From: a virus
Taxonomy: Duplodnaviria; Caudoviricetes
Reading direction: 5' to 3' (one strand)
IMG/VR virus record: IMGVR_UViG_2588253904_000003
Span: 1-64,000 of that record
DNA length: 64,000 bases
This document shows positions 10,432 through 37,207 of the stretch, piece after piece. Numbering within the stretch: the first letter of the stretch is position 1; each line of letters starts with the position of its first letter. Position numbers and translations under genes: made by a program. The notes beneath the pieces were generated by a model. It was not told where the DNA came from, did no database searches, and saw only the letters and a list, made by a program, of their open reading frames with translations.

Positions 10432-10779
10432 ATGGACAAATATGACATGGAAATCCAGGCTGCTGTCAATCTGCCCAGCCGCCAAACCATTAATAAACAA
10501 ATACTTGATCTGGAGAAAAAAATTAACAAGCTGAAAATCAGCGGAACCCTTGACGATGCTGCCATAAAGAAACTGACCGACCAGTTAAAGTCTTTAAAAG
10601 CAACCGTCACCACCATTGACTTTTCTCCTTCTGCCCTGCAAAGCCTCACCAGCCAGGTGGAAAAAGCCCTGAGTTCTGTCAACGTCTCCGATGCAGGCAC
10701 CAAAAAGGCAGACAGCTTTCTGGCAAGTTTCGGAAAGCAGATCACCACAAAAATCTCTGATTATGTTAAGAACATCGGT
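10432..10779 (+). CDS. Tape-measure protein, exon 1 (116 codons, ending KNIG)
   Basis: Helical ORF whose codon 116 ends at the predicted group I 5' splice site (GGT|aaatgccg). Confidence 0.65.
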
Positions 10780-12393
10780 AAATGCCGTATCAGCGTACGG
10801 ATTTCATAAACTGTTTTTTGTTTTGAATATGCCCTTCATGCCCAAGCAATTCCTGATCGACGAACTGCAAGGGCAGGAATGTATGAACTTAGTCAACTCA
10901 TGATGTTCTATAAAGTGAATCGTAATTGAGGAATGCTGTTTCCTCAGTGCTGGGAAGCTTTTTTATAGTGAATAAATAGTGCCGCATGGCTACAACGTGA
11001 CTGGAAACGGTGAGCGTGATATGCACTCCGAAAGGATGTCAGCAATGGCAAAAAAATATGCGGCAGGTCATATGTGGAAACGCTAAATGACAGGTCTTGT
11101 GGAAGAGACTAAACCACCAATCAGCAGCGGAAATCCTAAGTCTGGTCATTCAGATATGGACGTGTTCAGAGAGTATAAACGATTCTGAGTCGAAAGGCTT
11201 GTAACAGGTACTCCAAACCAAGAAGGAAAACTTGCTCGTGACTGAGTAGAAACCAAAAGAGTGATACTGCTCTCCTGCTTCTTACACAGCTCTGCCTGCG
11301 CAGGAAGAAACAGGATAATGCTACGGAATTCTCCTGGCCGGAGTGGAAAAAACGGAGAAAATAGAAAGAAATTTCTAAACTAAATATTCATATTTTTATA
11401 GTATTTTTAAATATTTTACAGTATAATAAAAATAATAGTTTTTAAATTACAAGTGCACTCAATATAACAAGAAAGAACAAACGTTTATGGAAAATACTGA
11501 TGAACAAGAAATTGAGAAAGACCAAGATACCATTTCTGAAAAAGTCGCTCATATAACTGGCCGATATAATATTATATCGGCAATCATTGGAGCAATTGTT
11601 GGCGGTTTTTTTACTCTTGTCTGTACTCATATTAGCATAACAAACACCAACCTCTCATACAACTCCTTACAAGAAGAGTACGCTGTTTTAACAGAGGAAT
11701 ATCTTGCTTTAAAAGAAGAAAATAATAAATTACATAATGAAATCAAAGATTTAAATACTGAAGTTACTCAACTATCTATAGCTAAGGAAAACACTAACGA
11801 AATGCAGCCAATCGATAATAAAAGTGTATTTGATCTACCTGCTATTAATAGCAAAGAAAAGTATTGGTTTGATCATTCAGATCAATATCCTCCTGAGTGT
11901 TTTATTGATACTGATGGTATTGAACATTATACAGGTACTATATGTTTTCATTATGGAAGTAATAAAAACAACATTTTAAATCCCACCTACCAACTTGATG
12001 ATGCTTATTCTGAGTGCGTTGGAGAAATGGTATGTTCTTCTGTAAATGGAGATTCTCAGGAAAAAGCATGGTTGGAATTCTATTCAGGTGATCAATTTCT
12101 TGGCAGCACAGATCCTATAGATATTAATAGTGGTTCAAAACCATTTACTATTGATATTAAAGGTGTTAAAGAACTGACAATTGTAAGAAATGGAACTGAG
12201 TCTGACTATGGATACTTCACCATCATTTATGATTATTTGAATTTAGTTAAATAATGTTTAAAAACAGTACTCATTTCCATCTGAACTAGATAAATAAGTA
12301 TTTCCATAAATCAAATGTCTCCAATATATTCATTGCCTTTCTTCACAAGCTATGAAATGTAATCCTCCACAGATTACAAACATTAATCATATG
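10780..12393 (+). ncRNA. Group I self-splicing intron with cargo ORF
   Basis: P1 CGGT/GCCG with U.G at the splice site; P3 AATCGT (10918)/ACGATT (11179); P TGCTGGGAA 10948; Q AATCAGCAG 11119; R GTTCAGAGAGTA 11164; P7 GAGTA/TACTC (11209); P8 GAGTC-GAAA-GGCTT; terminal G 12393 gives an in-frame join. Confidence 0.8.
11487..12254 (+). CDS. Intron-borne membrane-anchored protein (TM, coiled coil, NPCBM/NEW2-like beta domain)
   Basis: Hydrophobic IISAIIGAIVGGFFTLV, coiled coil, C-terminal PFTIDIKGVKELTI; AT-rich; TATAAT upstream near 11422; no homing endonuclease motifs. Confidence 0.7.
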   Translation: MENTDEQEIEKDQDTISEKVAHITGRYNIISAIIGAIVGGFFTLVCTHISITNTNLSYNSLQEEYAVLTEEYLALKEENNKLHNEIKDLNTEVTQLSIAKENTNEMQPIDNKSVFDLPAINSKEKYWFDHSDQYPPECFIDTDGIEHYTGTICFHYGSNKNNILNPTYQLDDAYSECVGEMVCSSVNGDSQEKAWLEFYSGDQFLGSTDPIDINSGSKPFTIDIKGVKELTIVRNGTESDYGYFTIIYDYLNLVK

Positions 12394-15300
12394 ATATTCA
12401 AAACATTTGACAGCAAAAAAAAAACTCCTGAATCAACAAATGATTTTTCAATTCCTGAAATAGATGCCAGTGATATTTTAAGTGAAATACCTACACCCCA
12501 AAAAATACTTACTCAAATTGGCAAAAAAATACTCCAAGCAGTTGGAGCTGTAGTTAACATGTTTGTTACATGGGCACTTAACAAAGTGATTGATAAAGCT
12601 ATTGCCGCCCTTGATAACTACATACACAGGCTTGATAAAGCAAAAGAAGCTTTATCCAATACTCAATCTGAAATATCATCTATTGAAACAGAAATTAAGA
12701 GCTTAAATGATAAAATAAAAGAATTGGAAAATCGTGATCCAGCTTCCCTATCGATTATTAACAAAGAAGACTTACAAAACCTCAAAGCACAAAACGAAGA
12801 ACTAAAAATACGCCAACAATATCTAAATCAGGAAAAAAACGATGATCAACAGAAAGTTGCCAATTTGACCAAAGAAAAATACAACCAGCAATATGGCACT
12901 TCAAATCAGGAATTAATTGAACAGTATAAATCTCTCTACGAAAATCAACCAGGTCCAAGTAAACCCGTTTCCTCTTACTTAACAGGTGAAAACACCACTC
13001 AGACTATATCATATGCTGCTTCCAGCCAGGATACCGGATTAATCCGTGGTTCAGGGGTGTTAGCTGACCTTATAGCACAATACGAATACTATTCGGATTT
13101 AAAAAAAGAGGCCATTGGAAATGATGACTCTGAATCTATTGAAAAATATAATAATAAACTGAAAGAATTGTCACAAAAGCTTCAAGAAGATAGAAAGAAT
13201 CTTCAAGAATTTGCTGACGATTTATTAGCCGCGGGAGACGCAAGTCCTGAATTAGACAATATTACTTTACAACTTGAAACAATTGACAATCTTCTATTAG
13301 CACCAAAGCAGAACCTTATTGAATTTATTAATAACGATTCTTTATCAGAATCAAAGCAGCACTTAATTGATCTTATAAATACTGGCAGCTTAACCCAAAA
13401 TGAACTATTAACACATTTCCCAGAAATTAATAACTATTTAAAAGAAAATGGACTTACCTTAGAAGACTTAATTTTAACTGTTAAATTATACAAAGAAGAA
13501 CTATCTGACAATTCAAATGCAAATTTCCCACTCTCTTCTTCAAAAACAATAAGCAATCTTAATGCGCAAATTAAGCCTGCATTCGACAGCCTGAAATCAA
13601 CATGGCAAAACCTCTTTACGGACAATGAACTTAATATAAATAGTGTAGACATCCTATCTACCTGCGATTCAATCAAAGCAAAACTTGATGATATGTCAGA
13701 AATGGGCTTACAAGTCGATTATTCTGCATATGAGCATTTTATTGATATACTAAATGATTCAGATTCAGAAGCTGCTGATGTCCAAGACAGTTTCAATCAG
13801 CTTGCTATTTCTATCCTGCAAGCCGGAGTATCTGGAACGGAAGATTTTGAAACTTTAAAATCTGCCTTAGAAGATCTTGGTGTAGTAAATGAAGAACTGG
13901 TAGCTTTTGACGCTTTAATAAGTAATACAGAGATATTAAAAAAGTCAGGATTAGATTTAAATTCTGCTACAGAAGAACAGATTGCCTCTTTTGCAAATGA
14001 AATGGTATCTGCCGAAAATGTTGCACAAGCTATTTTAATGCTGACCTTCCAAAAGGAATTATGCAATCTACAAGGCATGAATACTTCTGGTGAAGTTGCC
14101 AACCTGCTTACGCTTGCTGAAAATGCAGCCTATACAGGTGAAATCATTAAAAACTTAACAGAATTAGAGGGAGTCTATCAGGAAATTGCTAGCGGTACTT
14201 TAACTCCCGGCCAACTAGATGCCAAACTGGCAAGAGCTGCAGAACTGGAAAATGCAATAAAAGAATCAGCAGGTAATATTAAATATGAGCCGCAAATTAA
14301 TTTTAACAGTATGGGCGGTGCTGCCTCCCATGCAGCAGGTGCCGGAAAATCCGCCGCCGCAAGCTACATAGAAGCCTTCGAGGAAGAGTTATCTGACTTA
14401 TCCCAGCTTCGCGACAATGGAGTTATTACTGAAAAGGAATACCTGGACAGTCTCTGCGCGCTTTATGAGAGATATTTTGCAAACAAGCTGGGGTATGAGA
14501 AGGAATATGCCAAATACCAACGGCAATACCTGGAAGGCTATAAATCGCTTTACGAATCCGCCCTCAGCGGCATTTCCACGCTGCTGGGTAATCAGATTGA
14601 CGGTTACAAGGATGCCAAAGATGCCGCTGTCTCCTCTCTCACTCAGGAAAAGGATGCCCGTCTTGAAGTAATTGACGCCCAGAAGGAACAGCTAGAGGCA
14701 CAAAAAGATCTGATTGACGAGCAGATCGAAGCAAAACAAAAGCTCATAGATGATATTCAAAATGAAATTGATGCTATGAAAGAAGCCAATTCTGAACGCC
14801 AGCGTCAGTTGGATTTGCAAAAAGCACAGTACGAGCTGGAACGGATGCAGCACCAGCGCACAATCCTTCAATACAGTGAAGAAAATGGAATGCAGTATGT
14901 GCAAAGTGATGAAGGACTGCGGACAGCAAAAGAAAACGTTGACAATGCAAAATTTGAAATTGAAATTTCCAATAAGGAAAAAAATATCTCCCTGCTGGAA
15001 GATGAAATCAGTCTGTTAGAAGAGCAAAAGGATGCCATTCAAAATCAAATGGACCTTCTCGACAAGCAGGCGGATCAGATTGAAAGCTACTATTCAAAAA
15101 TGATTTCTGAAACAGAAGCTTACTATGATTCTCTAATCAATAACATGGAACGCCAGAAATCAAAATGGGAAGAAATAGCTGAAATTGAAAACATTGCAAG
15201 AGCATATTCCGACTTAGAACAGGTTGCAGGCGGCATGGGCTACAGCGTCCAGGATATCTTAAGCGGCAATGAACAGGCTTTTGAAGATTTTAAGTCCAGG

Positions 15301-16501
15301 TACATTGCTCTGCTAAGCGACCTAAACAATAATTCCAGTTTTTCAGAAGGATTATCTTATGCCACATCAGGTATTGCCCAAGACATTGACAACCTGGAAG
15401 CTTCTGCTGCCACCGTCAGCGAAAGCACAGGCAAAATAGCCGCCAACATCGGGGAAGTTAACACCAGCGCAGAAACCCTAAGCGGCAGTCTGTCCAATAT
15501 TGGCGACGCCCTCTCCGGCTTTTCTGAGACGGACAATATCACTGCCGCCGCAGACGCCTTTTCTAAATTGGGGCAGGCAATCCAATCTGTAGCAGATGCA
15601 CTGAACATAAGCGAAGACGGTACCATAGGCAGTCTCACAGGCGCACTTAAGTCTTTATGCGAAATACCCCTTTGCCAAACGGATGATGATAAAAATGGCG
15701 GTATTCTGTCTAAATTTCAGGCATTAAAGACTGCTGTCACTGACGTAACAAGCGCCATTTCCGGCGGTGGTTCCTCCGCCTCAGACAGTGGTGACGGGGG
15801 AAATTCCTCAAGTCCAGGTACAAGCTCCGGTGCAGCCGGAAACAGTTCTGGCGGACTGGCAGGCGCCATTGCCTCCCTGAAATCCGCCGCCACTGATGCA
15901 TTAGGCGGCAATGGAAATGATGAATCAGAAGGACAAAGCGAAGGCTCCGGCATTATCGCCCAGTTTGGCCAGCTTAAAAATGCAGTAACCGATACCACGG
16001 AAGCCATCGGCAGCGGCGACTCAAAACAGAAGAAAAAATCTAAAGGAAACTCAAAAAATGGAAATCTGATCAGTTCCATCACAAGTCTTGGAAGCACCAC
16101 CTCAGAAATTCTTACCGGCGACGGTAATGATGAAGATAAATCAGGCGGCGTAATTGGGCGGTTTGAACAGTTTAAGGATGTCATCGGTGAAGCCAATGAA
16201 CATGTAACAGGAATTGCCACAGGGTTACACGATATTGATGGCGAAACTGTAGAATGCACCATCAAAGTAAATGTTGAACAAAATGGAGAGCTGCCTGCCT
16301 ATTCCAAAGGCGTCCTGGCTCCCATGAAGTTGGAAAGCGGTGAATATAAGGCAAAATATGGACGTGCATTTGCAAAGGGATCCGGAAATTACAAAGGACT
16401 TCCCAAATCAGAGAAAAATGCGCTTCGCTCTGAATATGGCCAGCCAGAATTAACCGTATATCCTGACGGAACTACAGAACTCACCACACAACCTACCATC
16501 A
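12394..16501 (+). CDS. Tape-measure protein, exon 2, 5' portion interrupted by the prophage
   Basis: Long coiled-coil ORF ending in AFAKGS...SEYGQPELTVYPDG...PTI; the ORF track reads on into phage DNA to 16653. Confidence 0.8.
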
Positions 16502-16515
16502 CCCCTCAGAATGAA
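16490..16515. other. Left attachment site
   Basis: CCTACCA-TCA-CCCCTCAGAATG: TMP sequence to the left, phage arm to the right. Confidence 0.75.
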
Positions 16516-16559
16516 AAAGAGAAAACAGAGGAGAGCCGGGCAGGCCCTCCTCTTTCCCT

Positions 16560-16808
16560 TTACATTGACAGCCGGATCTTTTTGGCCGCCGCCTGCTCAA
16601 TGAGCTGCTTTGCCTCTTCCCTGCTGCCACGCTCAGCAGATACCATGATATAACCGGGCATATCTTTGGCCGGTTCCACCTTAAAATCCTTCATTTCTGC
16701 CGCTTCCAGGCGCTCCTTCAGCTTTTTTGCATAATCTCCACATGCTGCCGGAAACGTGCCCGCAATCACCCGGATCGGGGCCTCCTTCGTGCTTTTTGTT
16801 TCTGCCAT
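16560..16808 (-). CDS. Small hypothetical protein
   Basis: 82 aa ORF with GGAGG RBS after the endolysin. Confidence 0.6.
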   Translation of the reverse strand: MAETKSTKEAPIRVIAGTFPAACGDYAKKLKERLEAAEMKDFKVEPAKDMPGYIMVSAERGSREEAKQLIEQAAAKKIRLSM

Positions 16809-16821
16809 TGTGTTTCCCTCC

Positions 16822-18462
16822 TTATGATTTCTTTAAATATTCACTACTGGAAAAGCCCTCTTTGCCATTGTAGGCAATATAAAGCCATTTCACACCTTCC
16901 ACCATGGTATAGTAACCATAATTCCGCACCGTTGCCCCTTTGGGGATCTCCGTGATAATATTCTCACTCTTCAGCACTCCCGGATGGGTTCTCATGTTCA
17001 AGTTGGTTGTGGTCTTATAGGCTCCGGCAATTCCCTTGGCAAAACTCTTTGCCCCCACCGGCTTCAGGGAAGCATTGCCCGCCGTGGCTCCGTTGGCCAC
17101 ATAGGTATAATATTGGCCGCCTGCATTGCTTGTGTAGGCATACCCACATGAAGCGCCCGGCCATACAATTTTATACCAACCATTGGCCAGGATCTCCAAT
17201 ACCTCCACAGAGGCTCCTTTGGTCACTCCTCCAATGGATCCGGATGCGGTACTGCTGCCGGTTCTCACATTCATATTGCTTTTGGCCGTTGCGCTGCCTA
17301 TTCCCTTGCCTACATAGTTTTTATTGCCTGAGGCCGTTGCTGTGCTCTGAGAAGCTCCTGAGGCCGTTCCTGAGGCCTTTGAGCCCTTACTCAATGCCAT
17401 AACTACATGAGAGCTTTCCTTCAGGTAAATGCCGCCCCTCTTTGCGTATGCACTGGATCCAGTGTGGGCAGCATCCGTGTATGCTTTAAATTTTCCGGTT
17501 GCCAGGAGAATGCTTTTCATATTGCCGGTGTAGCCACTGGCGGCAATGCTCAGGCCCGCCAATATGTAACATGCAAGCACCAGGGAGCTGCAATCAAAAT
17601 CTCCCTTGGCTCCGGCCACCTTCCGGCCATTGTTCACAATCGCATTAAAGCCCTTCCATCTGTTAGGCTGAGAATAGCCAAAATTATCATTTTTGCATAT
17701 CTCCTCCATAATTGCGGCGGCCTTGTCTGCCAGGGTATCATCCAGGCATTCCAGGTAAACATTCCACGGCTTACTGTACCATTCCCGGATGCAGATCTCT
17801 TTTGTGGTCTGATCCCCCGGTGTTTTCCCCTGAATTGTTCCGTTTTCGTCAATACTTGCATGGCCAATCAATACAGCCATCTGATCACTCCTTTCCTCAT
17901 AGCCCTTTACTGCTGCATATACCGCATCCCTCCGGGCCATATACTTACAGAAAACTTTGTCACTTTTCGCTGAAGCATAAAGCGCATCCAACGTCTTTCC
18001 ACCGGCCGCCCTGATAATCCGGGCAGAGGCTCCGGCCCCGCCCTGGTTCTCAATATCGGCCATGAAAATAATAGCTGCCGGATCTGTTACTCCCAAATTT
18101 TTAATATGGGTACAGTATCCGGTAATATCTTTCAGGGCAAGCGCATCCTGGGCCCGCTTCCCTTCCGTTGTGCTGAGGGCAGCAGATAACCGGCCCGCCT
18201 CTTCCGTTGTGGCCTTCCTGCTGCCCCATGAGGTGCCCTTTGCTGTAATTTCCGTATAAAGGGCCGCCCCCAATATTTCCTTGCCCTTTTGGGCTCCCAG
18301 GGCCTCACAAATCTCTTTCATAAGGCCCAGGGCCCTGCCGCCATGCCACTGGACTCTCCCAACCGATAAAGCCCCGTTATCGTTCTTATTTACCGATCCA
18401 TAACCCCCTTCATGGGAAAAAATGATCGGAGCCGCCCTCTCAGCAATTTCCTTCAGATTCAT
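16822..18462 (-). CDS. Endolysin: lysozyme-like domain, NlpC/P60-like peptidase and two SH3b domains
   Basis: HEGGYGSVN...ALSVGRVQW; FDCSSLV...HVVM; MNVRTG and LNMRTHPG SH3b starts. Confidence 0.85.
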   Translation of the reverse strand: MNLKEIAERAAPIIFSHEGGYGSVNKNDNGALSVGRVQWHGGRALGLMKEICEALGAQKGKEILGAALYTEITAKGTSWGSRKATTEEAGRLSAALSTTEGKRAQDALALKDITGYCTHIKNLGVTDPAAIIFMADIENQGGAGASARIIRAAGGKTLDALYASAKSDKVFCKYMARRDAVYAAVKGYEERSDQMAVLIGHASIDENGTIQGKTPGDQTTKEICIREWYSKPWNVYLECLDDTLADKAAAIMEEICKNDNFGYSQPNRWKGFNAIVNNGRKVAGAKGDFDCSSLVLACYILAGLSIAASGYTGNMKSILLATGKFKAYTDAAHTGSSAYAKRGGIYLKESSHVVMALSKGSKASGTASGASQSTATASGNKNYVGKGIGSATAKSNMNVRTGSSTASGSIGGVTKGASVEVLEILANGWYKIVWPGASCGYAYTSNAGGQYYTYVANGATAGNASLKPVGAKSFAKGIAGAYKTTTNLNMRTHPGVLKSENIITEIPKGATVRNYGYYTMVEGVKWLYIAYNGKEGFSSSEYLKKS

Positions 18463-18751
18463 CCTCTTCCTCCTTTCCCGTTTTGCACAAATCCGGGTAT
18501 TTCTCCGCTATCTTCCCATATACCCACACCCCGATCAGCACCAGGGGGAGAAACGGCCACAGCACCGCCGCCAATAAGGAAATAGCGAAAAAGGAGCAGA
18601 TGGCGATCAAGCCTTCTCCTGCTCCTTCCGGGTATTCCATGTATTTCTCTTCCTCACTCAACTCATTCCATGAGCTGCAAAACAGATATAATAAGGCCAT
18701 GGCCAATATTACAGCCACAGCCACATAAACAATAAGCAGCGCCTTCCACAC
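18440..18751 (-). CDS. Membrane protein of the lysis module
   Basis: Two to three hydrophobic segments. Confidence 0.55.
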   Translation of the reverse strand: MWKALLIVYVAVAVILAMALLYLFCSSWNELSEEEKYMEYPEGAGEGLIAICSFFAISLLAAVLWPFLPLVLIGVWVYGKIAEKYPDLCKTGKEEEDESEGNC

Positions 18752-18753
18752 TT

Positions 18754-19071
18754 TTATGCCCCCTTACTGTTATTCATAGCAAACACAGCCGCCTCTATCA
18801 GGGTTTCAAGCTGAGCATCCGAAATAGAAATATTTTTGGCTGCAAGAATCTCTTTCAAAAACTCCGTAACAATGGCCTTTTTCTCAGCGCCGGATCCTGC
18901 CTCCTTATTCATCTGCTCTGCCGCCTCCACGGCCTTGGCCACCCACTTCATAACTCCGGTGAGCTTCATTTCCTCTGCCCACGTTTTGAGCAGCGGGATC
19001 CCGTACCTCATAATGAGCGTTACTGCAATAATCACCACAAGCTCAATAACCTTTAATAAAATATTATCCAT
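18754..19071 (-). CDS. Holin (LL-H-like)
   Basis: N-terminal TM, AVEAAEQ...GAEKK...LIEAAV. Confidence 0.8.
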   Translation of the reverse strand: MDNILLKVIELVVIIAVTLIMRYGIPLLKTWAEEMKLTGVMKWVAKAVEAAEQMNKEAGSGAEKKAIVTEFLKEILAAKNISISDAQLETLIEAAVFAMNNSKGA

Positions 19072-19085
19072 AGAAATATGCCTCC

Positions 19086-19508
19086 TTATCCTTTTGCCGC
19101 CTCAGAGGGCCCTTCCTGGCTCTCTGAGCATGTTTCAGGGCCTCTCATTGCCATATCATGCACAATGCCGCCCTCCGTGTTTTCTTTGGTTGCTTTTGCC
19201 GCATAGGCACAGTATGAGATCGCTTCTCCTACCGTGGCCCCGATCAGGCTGTACAGCGCTGAGAGATCCGCAAAGTGCCACATTGCGGCCATAGAGTAAA
19301 GCTGCACCGCCGTACATGATAGGAAGATATAAGCCAGGGCCACCTTGGAAGCGTTTGGCGGCTTCTTTTTCGGCCAGTATTCCTCCCGCTTCTGTTTCAG
19401 CTCTTCCTCCAATAGCTTCCGCTCTCCCTGGATCTCAATCCTCCTCAGCTTCCGCTCATGCTCCCTGAGCTCTTCCCTGCTTAGCCTCACCCGGCTCACC
19501 TCCCACAT
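19086..19508 (-). CDS. Membrane-associated hypothetical protein
   Basis: Two TM segments, KATKENTEGGI. Confidence 0.6.
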   Translation of the reverse strand: MWEVSRVRLSREELREHERKLRRIEIQGERKLLEEELKQKREEYWPKKKPPNASKVALAYIFLSCTAVQLYSMAAMWHFADLSALYSLIGATVGEAISYCAYAAKATKENTEGGIVHDMAMRGPETCSESQEGPSEAAKG

Positions 19509-19944
19509 AAAAATCCTTTTCTTCCTGGCACTTATGGTAAATCTTCAGAATATACTCATATTCTGCTTCATATACACCGTTGGGATCATTCGTCACCTTC
19601 AGCAGCTCCTCATATTTCTCATTCTGCTGTATGATATAATTAAATTCACCCTCAGAGTGCCTCTGCCCTCTTTGGCATTCGTTGTAAAAATTGAAAATCT
19701 CTGCTTTGATATTGTCGGCGGCATCTATCGCCCTTTGTATTGCAAGTTCTTCCTGCCTTTTGGCAATTTCCTCCTGCTCCTTCCTCAGTTCCTTCATTTC
19801 TTCCTTCACACTGGCCATCATTTTGTTGCCGATCCACCCAAAAAGGCTGCTCCATGGATTGATCTTGATCTTGGATACCTCTATGAAGGTGCCCAGGAAG
19901 AGAGCCCCGCCTGAAATAGCCGCCACTATTTCTCCTATGCTCAC
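19456..19944 (-). CDS. Holin-associated hypothetical protein
   Basis: IKINPWS motif and coiled coil in the lysis region. Confidence 0.6.
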   Translation of the reverse strand: MSIGEIVAAISGGALFLGTFIEVSKIKINPWSSLFGWIGNKMMASVKEEMKELRKEQEEIAKRQEELAIQRAIDAADNIKAEIFNFYNECQRGQRHSEGEFNYIIQQNEKYEELLKVTNDPNGVYEAEYEYILKIYHKCQEEKDFYVGGEPGEAKQGRAQGA

Positions 19945-20156
19945 TCCTGCTCCTCTCCTTCCTCTTCATTTTCCGGCCCCTGCACTTTGCAGAAAACGCA
20001 CCGGGAGCATGGCTCTTGGCTGTATGGCATGTAATAACTTTTACATTCCCCACAATTTCCATATTCTTTGCACTCCCGGCTGCACTCTTCCAGTGTCCTC
20101 CTGCAATATCCCAGGGCCCTATGAGAGCACCTGAAATTATTCCGCTTCGGCTTCAT
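19941..20156 (-). CDS. Cys-rich small protein
   Basis: 71 aa ORF coupled to both neighbours. Confidence 0.5.
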   Translation of the reverse strand: MKPKRNNFRCSHRALGYCRRTLEECSRECKEYGNCGECKSYYMPYSQEPCSRCVFCKVQGPENEEEGEEQE

Positions 20157-20349
20157 CCATTTCCTTCAGCATGGCATTGAGCTCATTTTTCCTGGCGGCC
20201 ATTCTGTCAGATTCAGCGATCTCCTCAGCGTATTCCTCCACCGTGGCCCGCCCCATTGCGATCTTGGTGCCTATGTAGTCCTTTTCTCTCATAAGCTGAT
20301 CCAATCCTCTGATCTCTGCCTCAATCTGTTCTCTTGTCATTGCTTCCAT
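20137..20349 (-). CDS. Small hypothetical protein downstream of the RT
   Basis: 70 aa ORF with AGGAG RBS. Confidence 0.6.
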   Translation of the reverse strand: MEAMTREQIEAEIRGLDQLMREKDYIGTKIAMGRATVEEYAEEIAESDRMAARKNELNAMLKEMDEAEAE

Positions 20350-20364
20350 GTTTTTTCTCCTTCC

Positions 20365-21579
20365 TTATACTGTTTTAGGGATATATGGGATGTACTCCCA
20401 ATTTTCTATAAATAGCCGGTTGAAAAGGGCATCCATATTCCTGATAGTGTGGTATGCGTCCTTTTTCCCGGCAAATCCCCGCCATGATTGATATGCCGCC
20501 CTGATCTGCTCATAGCTCATGTGGCCCTCAGCATTCAGCTTGGCAAATTTCTTCAGCTTCCTTCTTTCCCTTGTTACAGAATCCCGGCATATTCTTTTCA
20601 CTACCTTCCCGGTATCCGTGAGCAGGAAATGTGTTTTTAAGAATGTGAAGCCCCTGCTGAGCTTCACAATTTTGGTTTTCTTATCATTGAGCCGTATTCC
20701 CAATGATTCATATATTTTTCGCACCTCTTCCAGTATCTCCTTCAGGTATTCCTTATCAATGTGAATGATATATGAATCATCCATATACCTGGCATATGGC
20801 CGGATCCCTTTTTCGTCCTTCACATAATGATCCACTTTATCAGGATAAGAAACGGCACATATTTGGCAGACTTCACTCCCTAATCCCAGGCCCCTGGCAT
20901 ACTCTTCACCGTACTCCATGGCCGCCTCTTTAAATTGTGCCATTTCCTTCATTTTCTCCTCAGCAAAGGCATCAATAAATTGCTCTGCAAGGTGAATGAT
21001 CCTCTGATCCGTGAATTTGCTCCGGATCTGCTCCTTCATTTTGTCATGTGGGATACTTGCAAAATAATCTTTCAGATCTATTTGCAGGATATAGCCCTCA
21101 TTTCCATATTTTGCATAATGCTCCTGCAAATGAAGCGTGATCCGGTCAATGGCATGGCTGATTCCCATACCCTTCCTGGATGCTCCGTTGTCATATATCA
21201 GACTATTGGAGAGTACCGGCATGAGTGCATTTTGTGAGAGGCTCTTCTGAGGCACACGCTCAGAGAAATGCACACTCTGAATATGCCTCAGCTTTCCCCT
21301 CTCCACCAAATCAAAGGCAATGAATCCCTTTCGGACATCCTCACCATTGATCAGTGCATTATGAGTTTTACAAAGGTTTCTGCTCAGCTCGGATCTGTAC
21401 CGCTGCACACTGGCTTTTCACCCCACTCCCTTCCTGGCATCCTTGTATGCCTGGTAAAGTGAGTTATAATCTGCCACCCGTTCAAAATTATCATATTCGG
21501 ATAGCCTCTCCCTCCGGTGTGCCTCCCTGGCCTCTCTCCTTCGCTGAGCTCTGCCCGCTCTTCTTTCTTCACTTGTCAT
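20365..21579 (-). pseudogene. DGR reverse transcriptase with in-frame TGA at codon 54
   Basis: DLKDYFASI, GLGLGSEVCQ, RYMDD, GFTFLK. The frame from ATG 21579 (MTSEERR...) reads ARKGVG*KASVQRY with TGA at 21420-21418; the tracked ORF 20365-21408 is the downstream part. Confidence 0.85.
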
Positions 21580-21868
21580 ATAAAATTGTGCCCATCTCCT
21601 CCTTGTACGGTATTTGTGCCCCTAACCGCATAATGGTATGGGTATGAAATGCACCTCTGCACCTTCTTTTCAGCTCCCTTCCGATTTCTGCACCATGCAA
21701 GCAGCGTACACCCACCCAAAACAAGCAAAAACCACCTCTCTGAGCACATGAGAGGCGGCAAGGTCATTTACACTTTTTTCAAAGTGACGGTCATCCACTC
21801 CTTCCTCTACCTGATACAGATTTCTGCCTTTTACAGCGTACTTTGTCGGATCGTTTATGGTAGTGAAT

Positions 21869-21988
21869 CAGACGGGCACCCGGAGAGCGTTGGAGCAACT
21901 GTTGTTGTTGGCATTGCCATTGTTGTTGACATTGCAGGCATTGGTAGAATTGCCCGCACACACAGACAGCAGCCACCAGTTGGCCCGG
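21869..21988 (-). ncRNA. DGR template repeat (TR)
   Basis: 120 bp with 12 AAY codons; differs from both VRs only at coding-strand adenines. Confidence 0.95.
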
Positions 21989-22020
21989 TGCGAAAAATAC
22001 AGCGGATAACCGATATTTCA

Positions 22021-22428
22021 TTATTTTCTTTTAACTATTTTCGTGTTGTCCTTCCAATTCTTCATCTTTCCCTCTTCCTTCAGCATTAAATTCAGGAGCG
22101 GATCAAATCGGTTCCAATCCACCGGCAAAGTAGTGGCCAGGTAATTTATGAGATCATAAATATCCCGCAAGGTGTCAATGGCCTCCTGGGCCTTTGCCTT
22201 CCTCTTCTCCACTAATTCCTCCGTGGTGCTCCATATTCTGTTAGCTGCCCGGATCTGAGTATAGAGCTTGTGGCACAGCGCACACATTGGCTTTGCAAAT
22301 ATATCCCGCCACCCTTTAGGCACTATATTGGTATTCCATACCAACCTTGTGGCCTCTGCTCTTATTTCCTCCGCAAGATCCAACACATCCAATTTCGAGG
22401 CGCTCCTGAGCCTTGCCAATACACTCAT
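22021..22428 (-). CDS. avd: DGR accessory variability determinant (Avd-like four-helix protein)
   Basis: 135 aa basic helical protein (IRAANRIW) between the target and TR/RT. Confidence 0.8.
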   Translation of the reverse strand: MSVLARLRSASKLDVLDLAEEIRAEATRLVWNTNIVPKGWRDIFAKPMCALCHKLYTQIRAANRIWSTTEELVEKRKAKAQEAIDTLRDIYDLINYLATTLPVDWNRFDPLLNLMLKEEGKMKNWKDNTKIVKRK

Positions 22429-22455
22429 GCTCTTTCCTCACTTTCGCAAATATAC

Positions 22456-22478
22456 CCCGCCCCTGGGAAGGGGGCGGG
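22456..22478 (-). promoter_or_regulatory. GC-rich hairpin downstream of VR1 (DGR target-recognition element)
   Basis: CCCGCCCC-CTTCCCA-GGGGCGGG just after the target stop codon. Confidence 0.75.
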
Positions 22479-22490
22479 ATTGATCCATGA

Positions 22491-23450
22491 TTATTCCGTG
22501 ATTCGGAAGCAGACGGGCACCCGGAGAGCGTAGGAGCAACTGTAGCTGTCGGCAATGCCATTGCCGCTGACATAGCAGGCATAGGTAGAATAGCCCGCAC
22601 ACACAGACAGCAGCCACCAGTAGGCCCGGCTTCCTCCGTCACCGGCCCCCTTGATCCGATTCTTCCAACTGTTCGCAAAAATCGGATACTGCACCGCCTG
22701 GCCTTCTCCCCATGGCTTTGTTGCCCAAATCAGTGAGCCAAACACTTCATATTCACACGGGATCCACAGTTTCCCTAAATCCTGCCACCCCCATGAGGTT
22801 GAATCATTCAGCTTTCCGGATGCGGAATATCTCTGCTCTAAAAGGAACCGCTTGGAGCTGATAACTGCCCGCACCTCTGCCGGGAGCTTTGCCTCTAATC
22901 CGGCCAGGAAGCTCTTCACGGTTGACTTGTTATAGGGATAAGGATCCGCTGAGGTTCCGTTGTTATCGTTTGAAGTGAACCATTGCACAGTATCCGGGTA
23001 ACAATCTTTTGAGATCCAATCAATATGCCACCCTACCTCCTGATCACAGCACCGTGTATATGTATTTATACCGGCAATCTGCATTTTGATCAGATAATTC
23101 CCCATGTAAATGGGTATATAGTCCTCTACATGCAGGCCATCAATGTTATGGGCTGCAAGCCTGGTTTTAATCCACCGCCACGGATCAGAAAATCCGGCAA
23201 TCTCCTCAGCAAATTCCACTGTAAGATCCCGTCCCTCATAGGTGCGATCTGCTGCCTCTATGGCATAATTGGTATGCTTATTCTCAAAATTGATCTGCTC
23301 TGCACCGTATTCATCCCCTTCCTGGGTGTACGGTGTTACGTCATTATAGCTCTTGGTGCCATCCTCGTTCTGCACCTCTCCAAACTTGCGATCTGCCGCA
23401 AGCTCTTTGTTGATCACGTCATCCACATAATCTGTTTTTAATACTGACAT
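22491..23450 (-). CDS. DGR target 1: tail-associated receptor-binding-type protein with C-terminal variable domain (DUF6273/CLec-like)
   Basis: Last gene of the tail module; VR1 at its 3' end. Confidence 0.85.
   Translation of the reverse strand: MSVLKTDYVDDVINKELAADRKFGEVQNEDGTKSYNDVTPYTQEGDEYGAEQINFENKHTNYAIEAADRTYEGRDLTVEFAEEIAGFSDPWRWIKTRLAAHNIDGLHVEDYIPIYMGNYLIKMQIAGINTYTRCCDQEVGWHIDWISKDCYPDTVQWFTSNDNNGTSADPYPYNKSTVKSFLAGLEAKLPAEVRAVISSKRFLLEQRYSASGKLNDSTSWGWQDLGKLWIPCEYEVFGSLIWATKPWGEGQAVQYPIFANSWKNRIKGAGDGGSRAYWWLLSVCAGYSTYACYVSGNGIADSYSCSYALRVPVCFRITE
22510..22629 (-). repeat. DGR variable repeat VR1
   Basis: 12 mismatches to TR over 120 bp, all at TR adenines. Confidence 0.95.
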
Positions 23451-23459
23451 AATGCCCTC

Positions 23460-24230
23460 CTATTCGTTAAATAAATGATTGCCGCCCAATCTCCTGGGCA
23501 GCGTTCTTTTTCTTTTCGGCTCCCGTGGATTCCCAAATGGGAAATATTCACGGCCCGTAATTAAAGGCAACCTCCTCTCTCTGATTTCTTTTTCTTCCTC
23601 CCGTGGTATCTCCGGATCCTTCAGCGGGAAATACTGATCACCCAACCTGAAGGGAAGCCTTCTCAATTCTGTTACCACCTGAGGCTCTTCATATGCTGAA
23701 GGGGCTTTGAATGGATAATATGCCCCGCCCAACCTTGTGCCCAATCCAAAGGGGAGCCTGAGCCGCTCCGGCTCTTTTGGCCGTGGTATCCTTGGATTCT
23801 TCAAGGGATAATAAAAAGCCCCCAAACGAAAAGGGAGCTTTACTGGCCGTGTGTAGAGGTTCCACATAACCTCATACAGCTTCAGGCAGGCCGATTCTAA
23901 CCGGTTTAGATCGTCATAGCCAATAAATGCACCATTCTCCTCATATACCGTTTTTTGGCCTATCTCGCAATTTACAAAGGCATTGATCGCCTCCAAATTA
24001 TCTGAAAGAGTGTTTATTTCATCAGCAAAAGGGTATTCCTCATATTTCCGATCCGGCATTGCCCTCACAAATACCGGCCAAAACTTACGGGCCACGGCCC
24101 CCAAAAATTCAATATTATTCTTGATCCGGTTAAAGTCCACGGTGTTGAAATAATCCCCGGCATAGTTCCCGGCTTCATCCTGCCGGGCCATCCAGTCTGT
24201 TTTTGGTGTTATCCATTCCATTTCACACAT
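23460..24230 (-). CDS. Tail-associated protein with repeated LPFRLG-x-YP C-terminal units
   Basis: WITPKTDW...DFNRIKNN N-terminus; 4-5 Pro/Arg-rich repeats. Confidence 0.65.
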   Translation of the reverse strand: MCEMEWITPKTDWMARQDEAGNYAGDYFNTVDFNRIKNNIEFLGAVARKFWPVFVRAMPDRKYEEYPFADEINTLSDNLEAINAFVNCEIGQKTVYEENGAFIGYDDLNRLESACLKLYEVMWNLYTRPVKLPFRLGAFYYPLKNPRIPRPKEPERLRLPFGLGTRLGGAYYPFKAPSAYEEPQVVTELRRLPFRLGDQYFPLKDPEIPREEEKEIRERRLPLITGREYFPFGNPREPKRKRTLPRRLGGNHLFNE

Positions 24231-26463: not shown

Positions 26464-26473
26464 ACTGCATCAC

Positions 26474-26845
26474 CTACATTTCAATTAAGTTTACTGTAAA
26501 ATCTTTATATACCGGCCTCCCCTCCTCATAGGTGTAAATGGGTGTTTTTCTATCCCCGGCATACATTTCCAGGCTTCCTCCGGCATTTTGATCCGGTATG
26601 AAAAAATTCACGCTCAGCCCAAACTTTTTCTTTATTGCCCGCCTTATTACCATGTATTCATCCGGCCTGAGCACGAACCATTTACACTCAATTTTATGCA
26701 CGTCCTCCCGTATGATCTGAGATACCATTTTCCCGTTGGCATTTCTCTCACTCTCCGATATGTCATAATCGGATATAGTCATCTGAGAGGGATCGGGGAG
26801 AGATACCCCGCCCACAATCAGAATATTATGATATTTTGCCGCCAT
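26474..26845 (-). CDS. Distal tail-like protein
   Basis: 123 aa directly after the TMP; RNANG...MYAGDR...NLIEM. Confidence 0.6.
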   Translation of the reverse strand: MAAKYHNILIVGGVSLPDPSQMTISDYDISESERNANGKMVSQIIREDVHKIECKWFVLRPDEYMVIRRAIKKKFGLSVNFFIPDQNAGGSLEMYAGDRKTPIYTYEEGRPVYKDFTVNLIEM

Positions 26846-26863
26846 GCGTTCTCTCTCCCCTCC

Positions 26864-30424: not shown

Positions 30425-30857
30425 TCCTTCCACTGTTCTCTTCACCTCGCTCCTTGGCCAATCGTTCCCTCATAGCCATGTTGTGCCTGAAGATAAAGTC
30501 ATCCATTCTTGCCTTGTGTAACTCCATTTCCGGGCTCAGTTTGCGCTTATCCCCTGCATCTTCCTGCTCGGTGAAATTTGTCTTTTCCTCCTCATTTCCA
30601 AATAATTCCGGGTAATATTCTTTCGGGAGCCGGATCGCCACTTTATTATCCATAAGCCTGCCAACCACATTGCCGATCTGAAGGGCCTGGTTGAAGAGGA
30701 GCATGATCTGATCCTTCAGTTCTGCCTCCCGTTTCTTCTGTTCGTGCTCTTTCCTCCTGGCATAGCTTTCCAGGAGATCGCTCACCTCTCCAAAACTCAG
30801 CTCCCAAAAATATTCAGGGCCATACCCGGCATCTAAAAATACCGGATACAGCCCCAT
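30393..30857 (-). CDS. Tail assembly chaperone (downstream part)
   Basis: FWELSFGEV motif; lies between the chaperone gene and the TMP. Confidence 0.6.
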   Translation of the reverse strand: MGLYPVFLDAGYGPEYFWELSFGEVSDLLESYARRKEHEQKKREAELKDQIMLLFNQALQIGNVVGRLMDNKVAIRLPKEYYPELFGNEEEKTNFTEQEDAGDKRKLSPEMELHKARMDDFIFRHNMAMRERLAKERGEENSGRNDAGTAASNH

Positions 30858-30886
30858 TATTGCCTCTGATACTGATTCAGGCTCTT

Positions 30887-31390: not shown

Positions 31391-31413
31391 TTTTCAATCC
31401 TCCTATACTCTTT

Positions 31414-31827: not shown

Positions 31828-31848
31828 AGTTCTTTTACCTCCTTGTTT

Positions 31849-37202: not shown

Positions 37203-37207
37203 TCAGA

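What the first reader, a model, noticed from the sequence alone, without database searches (positions are those of the whole stretch)
10780..12393. Group I intron in the tape-measure gene carries a membrane-protein cargo rather than a homing endonuclease
Seen: a full group I core (P1 with U.G at GGT|, P3 AATCGT/ACGATT, P, Q, R, P7 GAGTA/TACTC covarying from the usual GACTA/TAGTC, P8 with GAAA loop). Splicing from T10779 to after G12393 joins ...KNIG to IFKTF... in frame. About 1.2 kb after P7 holds an AT-rich 255 aa ORF (TM, coiled coil, beta domain) with its own TATAAT and no GIY-YIG, LAGLIDADG or HNH motif. Known: group I ORFs are normally homing endonucleases or IStron transposases. Inference: the intron acts as a neutral landing pad letting an essential structural gene host an independently expressed accessory gene, possibly for immunity or exclusion.
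Basis: partly seen in the sequence, partly recalled or inferred. Interest (0 to 1): 0.85.

Follow-up and report, generated by a model that had tools for sequence, protein, structure and literature searches.

The report
Cargo-carrying group I intron in prophage tape-measure gene
A self-splicing group I intron splits the tail tape-measure gene of a gut-bacterium prophage, and instead of the usual homing endonuclease it carries a membrane-anchored sugar-binding protein gene; related copies carry other accessory and defence-like genes at the same spot.

Summary
Window 10780-12393 is a group I intron. Rfam does not detect it. A hand-drawn P1-P9 fold on 15 homologous copies is 93% paired, against 35-42% for slid controls, and 59 of 124 pairs covary. 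An internal guide sequence (10820-10833) pairs with both predicted exon ends. One contig of a metatranscriptome run joins 10779 directly to 12394, in 1 of 4 runs. No intron-less site was found.

The 255-aa cargo has a TM helix, a coiled coil and a CBM51/NPCBM-like domain. It is not a known homing endonuclease.

In 12 related loci the same core and 3' element enclose 0.5 to about 13.7 kb of different genes. These include zinc-ribbon proteins, GmrSD-like, methylase plus specificity subunit, RelA/SpoT-like and transposases. 0 of 38 cargo ORFs hit an endonuclease family.

Group I introns in prophage tape-measure genes are already published (PMC2504315). The variable non-endonuclease cargo appears new.

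Not shown: independent expression of the cargo, its function, and splicing of the long versions.

The parts
10432..10779 (+). Exon 1 of the tape-measure gene (116 codons, ends ...VKNIG).
   Evidence: ORF. The N-terminal 104 aa are 49% identical to the start of P0002, a 927-aa PF10145 tape-measure protein. P0002 also ends VKNIGKCRISVRIS*, i.e. it reads into the same intron.
10780..12393 (+). Group I intron, 1614 nt, bounded by U10779 and omega-G12393.
   Evidence: The fold is supported by covariation. An RNA-library contig joins 10779 to 12394. An in-frame stop lies 9 codons into the intron.
10820..10833 (+). Internal guide sequence. 10820-10830 pairs with the first 11 nt of exon 2 (P10). 10831-10833 (GCC) pairs with GGT 10777-10779 (P1, with U.G at the splice site).
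   Evidence: The sequence is invariant in 15 of 15 aligned copies. P10 has 11/11 pairs in 8 of 12 loci and 9/11 in 3.
10918..11214 (+). Catalytic core. It comprises P3 (10918-10923 / 11179-11184) and an extra hairpin between P3 and P4. It also has P4 (10949-10953 / 11121-11125), a large P5 extension with GNRA loops, and P6/P6a. P7 is 11169-11175 / 11209-11214 with bulged A11170, and P8 is 11186-11201 with a GAAA loop.
   Evidence: P7 covaries at 3 of 6 pairs. P3 and P4 never vary.
11215..11362 (+). P9, P9.0, P9.1, P9.2 and a terminal hairpin. Similarity to related introns ends here, and this is where the cargo sits.
   Evidence: BLAST similarity ends at 11362. Alignments; pair counts.
11422..11427 (+). 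TATAAT hexamer 60 nt upstream of the cargo ORF (a candidate -10 box only).
   Evidence: Read. No -35/-10 pair was called here by the scan.
11487..12254 (+). Cargo ORF, 255 aa. It has a TM helix (about residues 27-48), a coiled coil (58-101) and a CBM51/NPCBM-like beta-sandwich (111-254). GC is about 30-32%, against 41-45% in the core.
12360..12393 (+). 3' terminal element of the intron. It is a hairpin TAATC-CTCCACA-GATTA (12360-12376), an AT-rich spacer, and omega-G12393.
   Evidence: Related loci have one to four hairpins with the loop (C)UCCACA and differing stems, followed by ..ATAGTATG.
12394..16503 (+). Exon 2, first part (starts IFKTF...). It is the C-terminal two thirds of the tape-measure protein.
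   Evidence: Homologues include 2000-2250-aa PF10145 proteins and proteins that their sources name tape measure. It is 99% identical to P0004 residues 1-1371.
16504..57619 (.). About 41.1 kb inserted in the 3' part of exon 2: a second prophage. It is not part of the intron but interrupts the same gene.
   Evidence: P0004 maps to 12391-16503 and then to 57620-58075. A large serine recombinase lies at 56018-57598. One search also finds an HTH protein, an endolysin-like protein, a reverse transcriptase and a second 1193-aa tail protein.
57620..58078 (+). Exon 2, last part (C-terminal 152 aa of the tape-measure protein).
   Evidence: tblastn of P0004 residues 1369-1520 gives 94.7% identity.

Best explanation
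Window 10780-12393 is a functional self-splicing group I intron in the tape-measure gene of an SPbeta/Sundance-like prophage of a Lachnospiraceae-type genome.

Proposed mechanism:
1. When the late operon is transcribed, the 5' ~590 nt fold into the ribozyme core (P1-P9.x).
2. The guide sequence 10820-10833 holds the exon-1 end (GGU, U.G) and then the exon-2 start (AUAUUCAAAAC).
3. The short 3' hairpin element brings omega-G12393 into the P7 guanosine site.
4. The exons are ligated to read ...VKNIG-IFKTF...

The peripheral region after P9.x tolerates inserted DNA. In this copy it holds one gene for a membrane-anchored CBM51/NPCBM-like glycan-binding protein. Related copies hold other accessory or defence-like genes.

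Shown here:
- the fold, by covariation;
- guide-sequence pairing at both ends;
- an exon-exon joint in an RNA library;
- the domain make-up of the cargo;
- cargo variability.

Inferred:
- self-splicing chemistry;
- independent, possibly lysogenic, expression of the cargo;
- a surface or exclusion role for it;
- that the intron benefits the phage as a place to keep accessory genes inside an essential gene.
For: Fold:
- 15 homologous copies; 124 hand-assigned pairs are 93.1% paired, against 34.9-42.1% when the partners are slid.
- 59 pairs have double changes, against 6-21 when slid and 31.0+-2.9 in shuffles (0/500 reach the observed value). This includes 3 of 6 P7 pairs, i.e. the P3/P7 pseudoknot.

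Guide sequence:
- 11/11 complementary to the exon-2 start, plus GCC/GGU.
- The same holds in relatives: P10 is 11/11 in 8 and 9/11 in 3 of 12 loci. Control windows average 4.7-5.2.

RNA:
- Run X9 (metatranscriptomic RNA-Seq) has a 2013-nt contig lying on 10300-10779 and then on 12394 onward: 'skips 1614, ends AA..TG'.
- The same run has separate contigs that start at 10778 and run into the intron, and one that runs 11439-12411.

No intron-less allele found:
- 0 of 123 proteins in hand carry NIG followed directly by IF.
- The 21-nt junction probe gives 0 viral and 2 metagenome hits, neither in a tape-measure gene.
- A degenerate probe hits 0 of 401 family genomes, whereas 13 of 401 hold the intron.

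Host gene:
- P0002, L002 and L003 have PF10145 tape-measure N-halves ending GVKNIG and then the same intron.
- Exon-2 homologues are tape-measure C-halves. 26 of the 120 listed contain MIFK at or near the called start.

Cargo:
- 19 of 37 family members hit NPCBM.
- The AF2 model has pLDDT above 90 over the beta domain.
- The top Foldseek hits are all CBM51 (7jrm E 1.7e-6; 2vmg TMt 0.56).
- 0 of 38 cargo ORFs in 9 loci hit a homing-endonuclease family.
Against: - Rfam RF00028 gives no match at any threshold tried.
- P1 has only 3 exon pairs.
- P3 and P4 never vary, so they carry no covariation evidence.
- The RNA joint is one contig, in 1 of 4 runs, with only 31 nt on the exon-2 side.
- That contig comes from a strain with 2 exon-1 differences from the window.
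- The tool did not report whether the joined form also stands in DNA runs (table 5b).
- The gene in this window is also broken by a 41-kb insertion. A full-length tape-measure protein therefore needs that element to excise.
- Exon 1 is only 116 codons and lacks the PF10145 domain seen in relatives.
- No promoter with both hexamers was called for the cargo.
Confidence: 0.8

Rival explanations
1. The exon-exon joint in the RNA library comes from an intron-less allele (as DNA or its transcript) in the community, not from splicing. On this view the intron in the window might be inactive.
For: The joint rests on one contig in 1 of 4 runs. RNA libraries can hold DNA. The tool withheld the comparison with DNA runs. 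The contig differs from the window at 2 exon-1 positions (table 3).
Against: No intron-less junction was found: 0 of 123 proteins, 0 viral contigs, 2 metagenome hits that are not tape-measure genes, and 0 of 401 family genomes. In run X9 only one exon-1 contig exists, and the intron branch starts at 10778. Both forms therefore appear to share one exon-1 sequence.
Confidence: 0.08
2. The ribozyme is a relic. The tape-measure function is supplied by two separate polypeptides: 10432-10809, and a protein starting at ATG 12352 or 12391. The conserved ATGATATTCAAAAC is a start-codon or promoter context rather than a 3' splice site.
For: Gene callers start 22 of 120 exon-2 homologues at MIFK. A reverse-oriented copy of the 3' element lies in front of a small ORF with a Shine-Dalgarno sequence in G1, G2 and L012. 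A weak promoter-like match, TCCACA-18-TATGAT, overlaps it.
Against: There is no Shine-Dalgarno sequence before either ATG. The first 11 nt after G12393 are exactly complementary to the guide sequence. This pairing is kept through wobble changes in relatives: ATATTT.., GTATTC... The core is under structural selection. The element occurs once in this genome, so it is not a general promoter. The RNA joint also argues against this.
Confidence: 0.07
3. The cargo protein is itself the intron's mobility or splicing factor, i.e. an unrecognised kind of homing endonuclease or maturase, and not a passenger.
For: Intron ORFs are usually such proteins (general knowledge; PMC2504315, section 8). Related introns very often carry a 105-200-aa double zinc-ribbon ORF of unknown function, which could be such a factor.
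Against: The window's cargo is a TM, coiled-coil and CBM51-like protein. That make-up fits a surface protein, not a DNA or RNA enzyme. Its family (82 representatives) is mostly 200-370 aa with the same make-up. The window's intron has no zinc-ribbon ORF. Cargo differs entirely between copies that share the same core.
Confidence: 0.04

Closest known systems
Group I introns in tape-measure genes of Bacillus cereus-group prophages (TMP-IVS1, -IVS2, -IVS3; Tourasse and Kolsto 2008, PMC2504315; section 8 part 1 and passages read)
   Same: Both are group I introns that interrupt a prophage tape-measure gene. Both are recognised through P1/P10 pairing to conserved exon flanks. Both are shared by different prophages. 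Some of the Bacillus introns lack a complete homing-endonuclease gene.
   Different: The Bacillus introns are described as IA1/IA2. This one has no P7.1/P7.2. It has P2/P2.1, a large P5 extension and an extra hairpin between P3 and P4, and Rfam does not see it. The section I read does not mention accessory-gene cargo. Here the cargo is 0.5 to about 13.7 kb of non-endonuclease genes.
IStrons (group I intron fused to an IS200/IS605-type element, e.g. CdISt1 of Clostridioides difficile). Recalled, not read here.
   Same: Both are bacterial group I ribozymes whose 3' part carries non-endonuclease genes and which still splice precisely.
   Different: IStron cargo is its own transposase, and the element transposes to many sites. 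Here there is one copy per genome at one conserved site. The cargo is unrelated accessory genes. The transposases seen in G1 and G2 (IS110, DDE) are only some of the passengers.
Fungal mitochondrial rnl group I intron that houses the ribosomal protein gene rps3. Recalled, not read here.
   Same: In both, a group I intron serves as the home of a gene that is not a homing endonuclease.
   Different: That is one fixed host gene in an organelle rRNA intron. Here there is a variable set of phage accessory genes in a protein-coding late gene.
Phage morons and accessory-gene hotspots (independently transcribed genes inserted between late genes). General knowledge.
   Same: The cargo is AT-rich relative to its surroundings, has a candidate -10 box of its own, differs between related phages, and is rich in membrane and defence-like genes.
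   Different: Morons sit between genes. Here the hotspot lies inside an essential gene and depends on RNA splicing to be harmless.

Membership tests
Group I intron | Conserved core of P3-P8 with a P3/P7 pseudoknot and a P4-P6 domain. | tested here: met
   124 pairs in 28 helices are 93.1% paired. P7 is 100% paired with 3 of 6 pairs covarying. P5, P6, P8 and P9 covary. P3 and P4 are invariant, so they are compatible but uninformative.
Group I intron | 5' splice site after a U that forms U.G in P1 with an internal guide sequence; the same guide pairs with the 3' exon (P10). | tested here: met
   U10779.G10831, plus two G-C pairs. U.G is present in 14 of 15 aligned copies. P10 is 11/11 in the window and 9-11/11 in 11 of 12 loci. 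P1 is short, with 3 exon pairs.
Group I intron | Terminal G (omega-G) at the 3' splice site. | tested here: met
   G12393. The last intron base is G in the 11 of 12 loci whose coordinate was set correctly. My search required a G, so this is partly built in.
Group I intron | Guanosine-binding G-C pair in P7 next to a bulged nucleotide. | tested here: met
   G11171-C11213 follows bulged A11170, and G11169-C11214 closes the helix. These pairs are invariant in 15 of 15 copies. That this is the G site is inferred from the general group I layout (recalled).
Group I intron | Match to the curated covariance model Rfam RF00028. | tested here: not met
   No match in the 64-kb window at the gathering score. 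No match in 2201 nt or 601 nt at E<=10. No match in the whole genome (the same search rang in 4 of 14 control genomes). The likely cause is the extra P3-P4 hairpin and the large P5 insertion; this explanation was not tested.
Group I intron | Precise exon ligation in RNA. | tested here: met
   Joint 10779->12394 in one contig of RNA-Seq run X9. There was no joint in X16, X18 or X15. A DNA origin is not formally excluded.
Group I intron | GTP-dependent self-splicing in vitro. | not testable with these tools
   A bench assay is needed.
Homing endonucleases (LAGLIDADG, GIY-YIG, HNH, His-Cys, PD-(D/E)xK) as intron ORF | Match of the intron ORF to one of these families. | tested here: not met
   For the window ORF, Pfam and PHROGs list only coiled-coil-type weak hits. 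0 of 38 cargo ORFs from 9 loci hit such a family at E<=0.01 or 0.001.
CBM51 / NPCBM (PF08305) carbohydrate-binding module (cargo C-terminal domain) | Sequence match to PF08305 and a CBM51 beta-sandwich fold. | tested here: inconclusive
   The window protein itself has no PF08305 hit at E<=0.01. 19 of 37 aligned relatives do, with best E 3.1e-6. The model's top 12 Foldseek hits are CBM51 modules, at E 1.7e-6 to 3.2e-4. Sugar binding was not tested.
Phage tail tape-measure protein (host gene) | PF10145 domain, a long coiled-coil protein, and a position ahead of distal tail genes. | tested here: inconclusive
   The window's own exons have no PF10145 hit. Exon 1 is homologous to the start of a PF10145 protein. 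Exon-2 homologues include PF10145 proteins of 2000-2250 aa and proteins that their sources name tape measure. L002's exon 1 aligns to the Sundance tape-measure protein up to residue 1084 of 2528.

The most novel reading that the evidence does not exclude
This is a family of group I introns that serves prophages as an accessory-gene platform. A split-looking ribozyme, made of a ~590-nt 5' core and a ~70-140-nt 3' hairpin module with conserved (C)UCCACA loops, can enclose anything from one small gene to a ~14-kb island. Such an island can carry restriction-modification-like, GmrSD-like and RelA/SpoT-like genes and insertion sequences. The ribozyme still restores an essential tail gene at induction.

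For the longest versions, the two ribozyme parts may be transcribed separately and joined in trans. Extra or inverted copies of the 3' module (G1, G2, L012, G164) may offer alternative acceptors.
Probability: 0.3. Interest if true: 0.9.

Novelty: new variant of a known kind. Interest (0 to 1): 0.72.

Why it matters
**A new place to keep accessory genes.** If the reading holds, RNA splicing lets a prophage keep variable accessory and defence-like genes inside an essential structural gene. There they cannot be lost without the flanking ribozyme parts, and they travel with the tail module. This adds a new kind of hotspot to the known ones (morons, ends of operons, integration sites).

**A wider view of group I intron ORFs.** It would widen the accepted view that bacterial group I intron ORFs are homing endonucleases or IStron transposases.

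**Practical consequences for annotation.**
- The intron is invisible to Rfam, so tape-measure genes of these gut Lachnospiraceae prophages are annotated as two unrelated ORFs.
- The core was found in 12 of 400 other genera sampled.
- The enclosed genes are likewise read as intergenic passengers.

**A test system.** A 14-kb version would be a case for asking how far apart the parts of a group I ribozyme can lie.

Tried and rejected
**Rfam.** Intron_gpI gave nothing. I did not take this as refutation, because covariation and the RNA joint outweigh it.

**Kissing-loop idea.** I proposed that the loop of the P5c-like hairpin (UGUGGAAG and similar) pairs with the (C)UCCACA loops of the 3' hairpins. 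This is rejected. The longest complementary run averages 7.33 for cognate pairs, 7.33 for non-cognate pairs and 7.4 for shuffled tails. The P5c loop is not conserved either.

**Invertible-segment idea.** I considered this for the inverted copies of the 3' element in G1 and G2. It is rejected on geometry: an inversion between them would not bring exon 2 next to the core.

**'No exon 2 within 13-20 kb'.** My first strict pattern search missed exon 2 in several family loci. This was an artefact of the pattern. Exon 2 is present 1.2-4.3 kb downstream, with wobble variants of the first codons.

**Junction probe hits.** L025 and L026 are not tape-measure genes. One lies in a TnpB-like ORF and one in non-coding DNA. 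I read both as chance matches.

**L014 (Flavobacterium).** It shares only the 20-mer and no further similarity, so I dropped it from all counts.

**L022.** It is nearly identical to the window and was left out of alignment A2.

**Depth and cover.** In X16 and X18 exon 1 has no cover while the cargo and exon 2 do. The cargo contig is deeper than the exon contigs in X9. Contigs begin at 11439, 11453 and 11457. No run covers 11301-11391. By the tool's own rules, contig depth and holes prove nothing, so I do not use these as evidence for a cargo promoter.

**BLASTP of exon 2.** Against the Sundance tape-measure protein and against P0002 it gave no significant match. tblastn of exon 2 against the phage collection found nothing. 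blastn of 9900-13400 against phages found only a 36-nt chance hit.

**Coordinates mis-set.** The L036 3' site was set 9 nt too early and the L043 5' site was wrong. Their rows (5/11 for P10, 0/3 for P1) are therefore not informative.

**Literature.** Searches found no paper on accessory or defence cargo in phage group I introns. Apart from PMC2504315 and PMC4299906, I saw only search listings. Supplementary files were not consulted.

Full report
**What is at the place**

The window holds, on the + strand:
- a holin (8721-9215);
- a GH25 endolysin (9222-9920);
- a 152-aa ORF;
- a 125-aa ORF (10432-10809);
- about 680 nt without an ORF;
- an AT-rich 255-aa ORF (11487-12254);
- a 1433-aa ORF (12352-16653).

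The 125-aa and 1433-aa ORFs are in the same frame. Removing 10780-12393 (1614 nt) joins ...VKNIG to IFKTF....

**Is it a group I intron?**

*Against.* Rfam says no.
- There is no Intron_gpI match in the window at the gathering score.
- There is none at E<=10 in 2201 nt or in 601 nt.
- There is none in the 4.57-Mb genome, while the same search rang in 4 of 14 control genomes.

*Comparative evidence says yes.*
- The stretch 10765-11362 is about 78% identical over roughly 600 nt to two IMG/VR contigs.
- Exact-word scans found two more viral contigs and 12 genome contigs.
- Of those 12, 11 are real relatives, nearly all Lachnospiraceae or other Clostridia MAGs. One, a Flavobacterium, is a chance 20-mer.
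- A BLAST search found the core in 12 of 400 other genomes of the same family, one per genus.

*The fold.* On an alignment of 15 copies I drew a group I fold by hand, helped by RNAalifold. It contains:
- P1;
- a hairpin in the P1 loop;
- P2 and P2.1;
- P3;
- an extra hairpin between P3 and P4;
- P4 and P5;
- a multi-helix P5 extension with GNRA loops;
- P6 and P6a;
- P7, which is pseudoknotted with P3;
- P8 with a GAAA loop;
- P9, P9.0, P9.1 and P9.2.

*Pair counts.*
- 93.1% of cells are paired, against 34.9-42.1% when the 3' partners are slid by 1-3 columns.
- 59 of 124 pairs have changes on both sides. Slid controls give 6-21. Shuffles give 31.0+-2.9, and 0 of 500 reach the observed value.
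- P7 is 100% paired with 3 of 6 pairs covarying.
- P3 and P4 never vary and so say nothing either way.
- P7 has the classical shape of a bulged A followed by a G-C pair. That this is the guanosine site is recalled group I knowledge.

*Likely reason for the Rfam miss.* The extra P3-P4 hairpin and the long P5 insertion probably explain it. I did not test this.

**Splice sites**

- GTTTTGAATAT (10820-10830) is the exact reverse complement of ATATTCAAAAC (12394-12404). The next three bases, GCC, pair with GGT 10777-10779 with U.G at the cut. This is the usual P10/P1 arrangement of an internal guide sequence.
- The guide is invariant in all 15 aligned copies.
- In 12 loci where I could place both ends, P10 has 11/11 pairs (G.U allowed) in 8 loci and 9/11 in 3. 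Other 11-mers of exon 2 average 4.7-5.2.
- P1 has 3/3 pairs in 11 loci. Two coordinates were mis-set by me and those rows are void.
- Exon 2 starts with wobble-compatible variants in relatives: ATATTT.., GTATTC...
- P1 is short, at three exon pairs.

**RNA evidence**

I laid the contigs of four RNA-labelled runs on 10300-13000.
- Run X9 is a metatranscriptomic RNA-Seq library. It has a 2013-nt contig that lies on 10300-10779 and continues at 12394: 'skips 1614, ends AA..TG', with 31 nt on the short side.
- In the same run another contig starts at 10778 and runs into the intron, and a third covers 11439-12411. Unspliced and joined forms therefore both hang on one exon-1 sequence.
- The other three runs show no joint.
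- These are contigs, not reads, and the tool did not say whether the joined form also exists in DNA runs.

I looked for an intron-less allele in other ways and found none.
- None of 123 proteins in hand has NIG directly followed by IF.
- A 21-nt junction probe gave 0 viral and 2 metagenome hits, neither in a tape-measure gene.
- A degenerate probe gave 0 of 401 family genomes.

**The host gene**

- The first 104 residues of exon 1 are 49% identical to the start of P0002, a 927-aa PF10145 protein. P0002 also ends with the same 14 residues, VKNIGKCRISVRIS. It therefore reads into the same intron, but after residue 918 rather than 116.
- L002 and L003 have 1286- and 1036-aa PF10145 N-halves ending GVKNIG, followed by the intron.
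- L002's N-half aligns to the 2528-aa tape-measure protein of Brevibacillus phage Sundance up to residue 1084.
- Exon 2 has 239 relatives at E<=0.001, of which 120 are listed. They include uninterrupted 2000-2250-aa PF10145 proteins and proteins that their sources name tape measure. 26 of the 120 carry MIFK at or near the called start, 22 of them at residue 1.
- The window's gene has a short exon 1 without PF10145. The same arrangement is seen in L021 and L022.
- The gene is broken a second time. P0004 (1520 aa) maps to 12391-16503 and then to 57620-58075. A 41.1-kb element with a large serine recombinase therefore sits in its 3' part.

**The cargo**

- The 255-aa protein has four close relatives in the word-based search. 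It has 82 representatives at E<=0.001 in the exhaustive search, 40 of them at E<=1e-10.
- I aligned it with 36 of those 82, leaving out short fragments and very long proteins.
- Pfam finds only coiled-coil-type weak hits in the window's protein. NPCBM (PF08305) is hit in 19 of the 37 aligned members.
- The AlphaFold model has mean pLDDT 82. It shows a long helix at 19-51 that contains the hydrophobic stretch, a helix at 58-101, and a beta domain at 111-254 with pLDDT above 90.
- The best solved-structure matches are all CBM51 modules.
- The protein is therefore a membrane-anchored, probably outward-facing, glycan-binding-type protein. The topology is inferred. It is not a known endonuclease.
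- Its GC content is about 30-32%, against 41-45% in the ribozyme core.
- A TATAAT hexamer lies at 11422-11427, but no two-hexamer promoter was called there.

**Relatives carry other cargo at the same place**

Similarity to the window ends after the P9.x hairpins, and then resumes only in a short 3' element. That element consists of one to four hairpins with the loop (C)UCCACA on differing stems, an AT-rich spacer..ATAGTATG and exon 2.

Intron lengths in nt:

| Locus | Length | Note |
|---|---|---|
| L040 | 1164 | |
| L041 | 1239 | |
| L038 | 1258 | |
| L015 | about 1303 | no 5' exon recognised |
| window | 1614 | |
| L036 | about 1730 | read from the printed context; the script's own candidate was wrong |
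| L037 | 1978 | |
| L018 | 3229 | |
| L035 | 3397 | |
| L043 | 4256 | |
| L011 | 6214 | |
| G1 | 8402 | exon 2 there is only a short frame |
| G2 | 14356 | |

Cargo found in the relatives:
- 105-200-aa double zinc-ribbon proteins encoded antisense to the tape-measure gene. One search confirms these in L035, L036, L037, L038, L040, L041 and L043, and weak Zn_ribbon hits occur in L018 and G2. A similar ORF in L021 was judged by eye only.
- Further proteins with a TM helix, coiled coil and NPCBM domain.
- A GmrSD_N protein and a Bro-N protein.
- An N6 methylase with a specificity subunit.
- HARE-HTH.
- IS110 and DDE transposases.
- A lipoprotein with an Ig-like domain.
- DUF2513.
- A RelA/SpoT-domain protein.

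None of the 38 cargo ORFs scanned hits a homing-endonuclease family. In the loci checked, exon 2 is followed by ordinary tail genes.

**How it most likely works**

- At late transcription the ribozyme core folds. An in-frame stop 9 codons into the intron would release ribosomes before they disturb it, a feature recalled from other phage introns.
- The guide sequence aligns both exon ends, and the exons are joined.
- The region after P9.x is a tolerant loop in which foreign genes have accumulated.

I put 0.8 on 'a spliced group I intron with non-endonuclease cargo', and about 0.65 on the landing-pad reading. I put much less on any specific function for the cargo. A superinfection-exclusion or receptor-masking role is a guess from its make-up. 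Whether the 6-14-kb versions splice in cis, in trans or not at all is open.

**Comparison with what is known**

- Group I introns in prophage tape-measure genes are published for the Bacillus cereus group: three sites, IA1/IA2, some without a complete endonuclease gene (PMC2504315; section 8 part 1 and passages read). The bare finding 'intron in a tape-measure gene' is therefore not new.
- Phage Moonbeam's introns are in the terminase and polymerase genes, not the tape-measure gene (PMC4299906; passages read).
- Six full-text searches turned up no report of phage group I introns carrying accessory or defence genes. Apart from the two papers above I saw only listings.
- IStrons and the fungal rps3 intron are the nearest precedents for non-endonuclease intron genes. 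Both are recalled, not read here.

**Unexplained**

- Inverted copies of the 3' element lie about 0.9 kb after the 5' splice site in G1, G2 and L012. They sit in front of a small membrane-protein ORF on the other strand.
- A possible second acceptor lies in front of a second exon-2-like frame in G164.
- The partner of the conserved (C)UCCACA loops is unknown. The P5c kissing idea failed.
- The loop UGCUR of the extra P3-P4 hairpin is invariant, and it repeats the P4 strand motif.

**Verdict**

- This is a new variant of a known kind, of good interest because of the variable cargo, the RNA evidence, and the fact that it escapes Rfam.

Noticed in passing
window 16504-57619: A second prophage of about 41.1 kb is inserted in the 3' part of the same tape-measure gene. 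It carries a large serine recombinase (56018-57598), an HTH protein (54778-55287), an ELLD/SH3 endolysin-like protein (16822-18462, minus strand) and its own 1193-aa tail protein (26864-30445, minus strand). CCCTCAG is shared at both junctions.
   Followed up: partly
window 21577-21855 (-) and 20365-21408 (-): An RT-2 RNA (Rfam RF03077, 79.4 bits, E 2e-16) lies directly upstream of a 347-aa reverse transcriptase ORF (RVT_1), inside the nested prophage.
   Followed up: no
window 3310-5748 (+): An 812-aa protein matches the Pfam RdRP family (PF05183, E 6.5e-16). This is the family to which the SPbeta YonO-type phage RNA polymerase is related (recalled). It fits an SPbeta/Sundance-like outer prophage.
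   Followed up: no
G001 16497-16519 (-), G002 19954-19978 (-), L012 about 14166 (-): Inverted copies of the intron's 3' element (two CUCCACA hairpins plus ..ATAGTATG/ATATTCAAAAC) lie about 0.9 kb after the 5' splice site. Each is followed on that strand by a Shine-Dalgarno sequence and a 72-79-aa membrane-protein ORF. Their purpose is unknown.
   Followed up: partly
L035, L036, L037, L038, L040, L041, L043, L018, L008 (G002), L021: Related introns very often carry a 105-200-aa protein with two zinc ribbons. It is encoded antisense to the tape-measure gene, just upstream of the 3' element. It has no known function and is absent from the window's intron.
   Followed up: partly
L015 616-1214: This is a copy of the ribozyme core without a recognisable 5' exon. 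The guide sequence is paired in cis with an upstream ATATTCAAA, and a tRNA-like 3' end (GGTTCGATTCC) lies just upstream. An acceptor follows about 1.3 kb downstream.
   Followed up: no
window 10925-10948: An extra hairpin lies between P3 and P4. Its stem covaries strongly (4 of 8 pairs). Its loop, UGCUR, is invariant and repeats the P4 5' strand motif. This is unusual for group I and may explain why Rfam misses the intron.
   Followed up: partly
L035 16942-17916 (-): One related intron (3397 nt) carries a 324-aa RelA/SpoT-domain protein (PF04607, E 2e-16) and a 375-aa PHROG 1974 protein.
   Followed up: no
window 342-1811 (-): A 489-aa GmrSD_N (DUF262-type) protein is encoded next to the outer prophage. 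A related domain also occurs as intron cargo in G001 and G002.
   Followed up: no
L037 18894 (= G164:C6 about 20093): A second exon-2-like frame begins with G|ATATTCAAAAC about 18.6 kb downstream of the intron core in one genome. It matches the window's exon 2 at E 3.9e-11. It may be a second acceptor or a second prophage.
   Followed up: no
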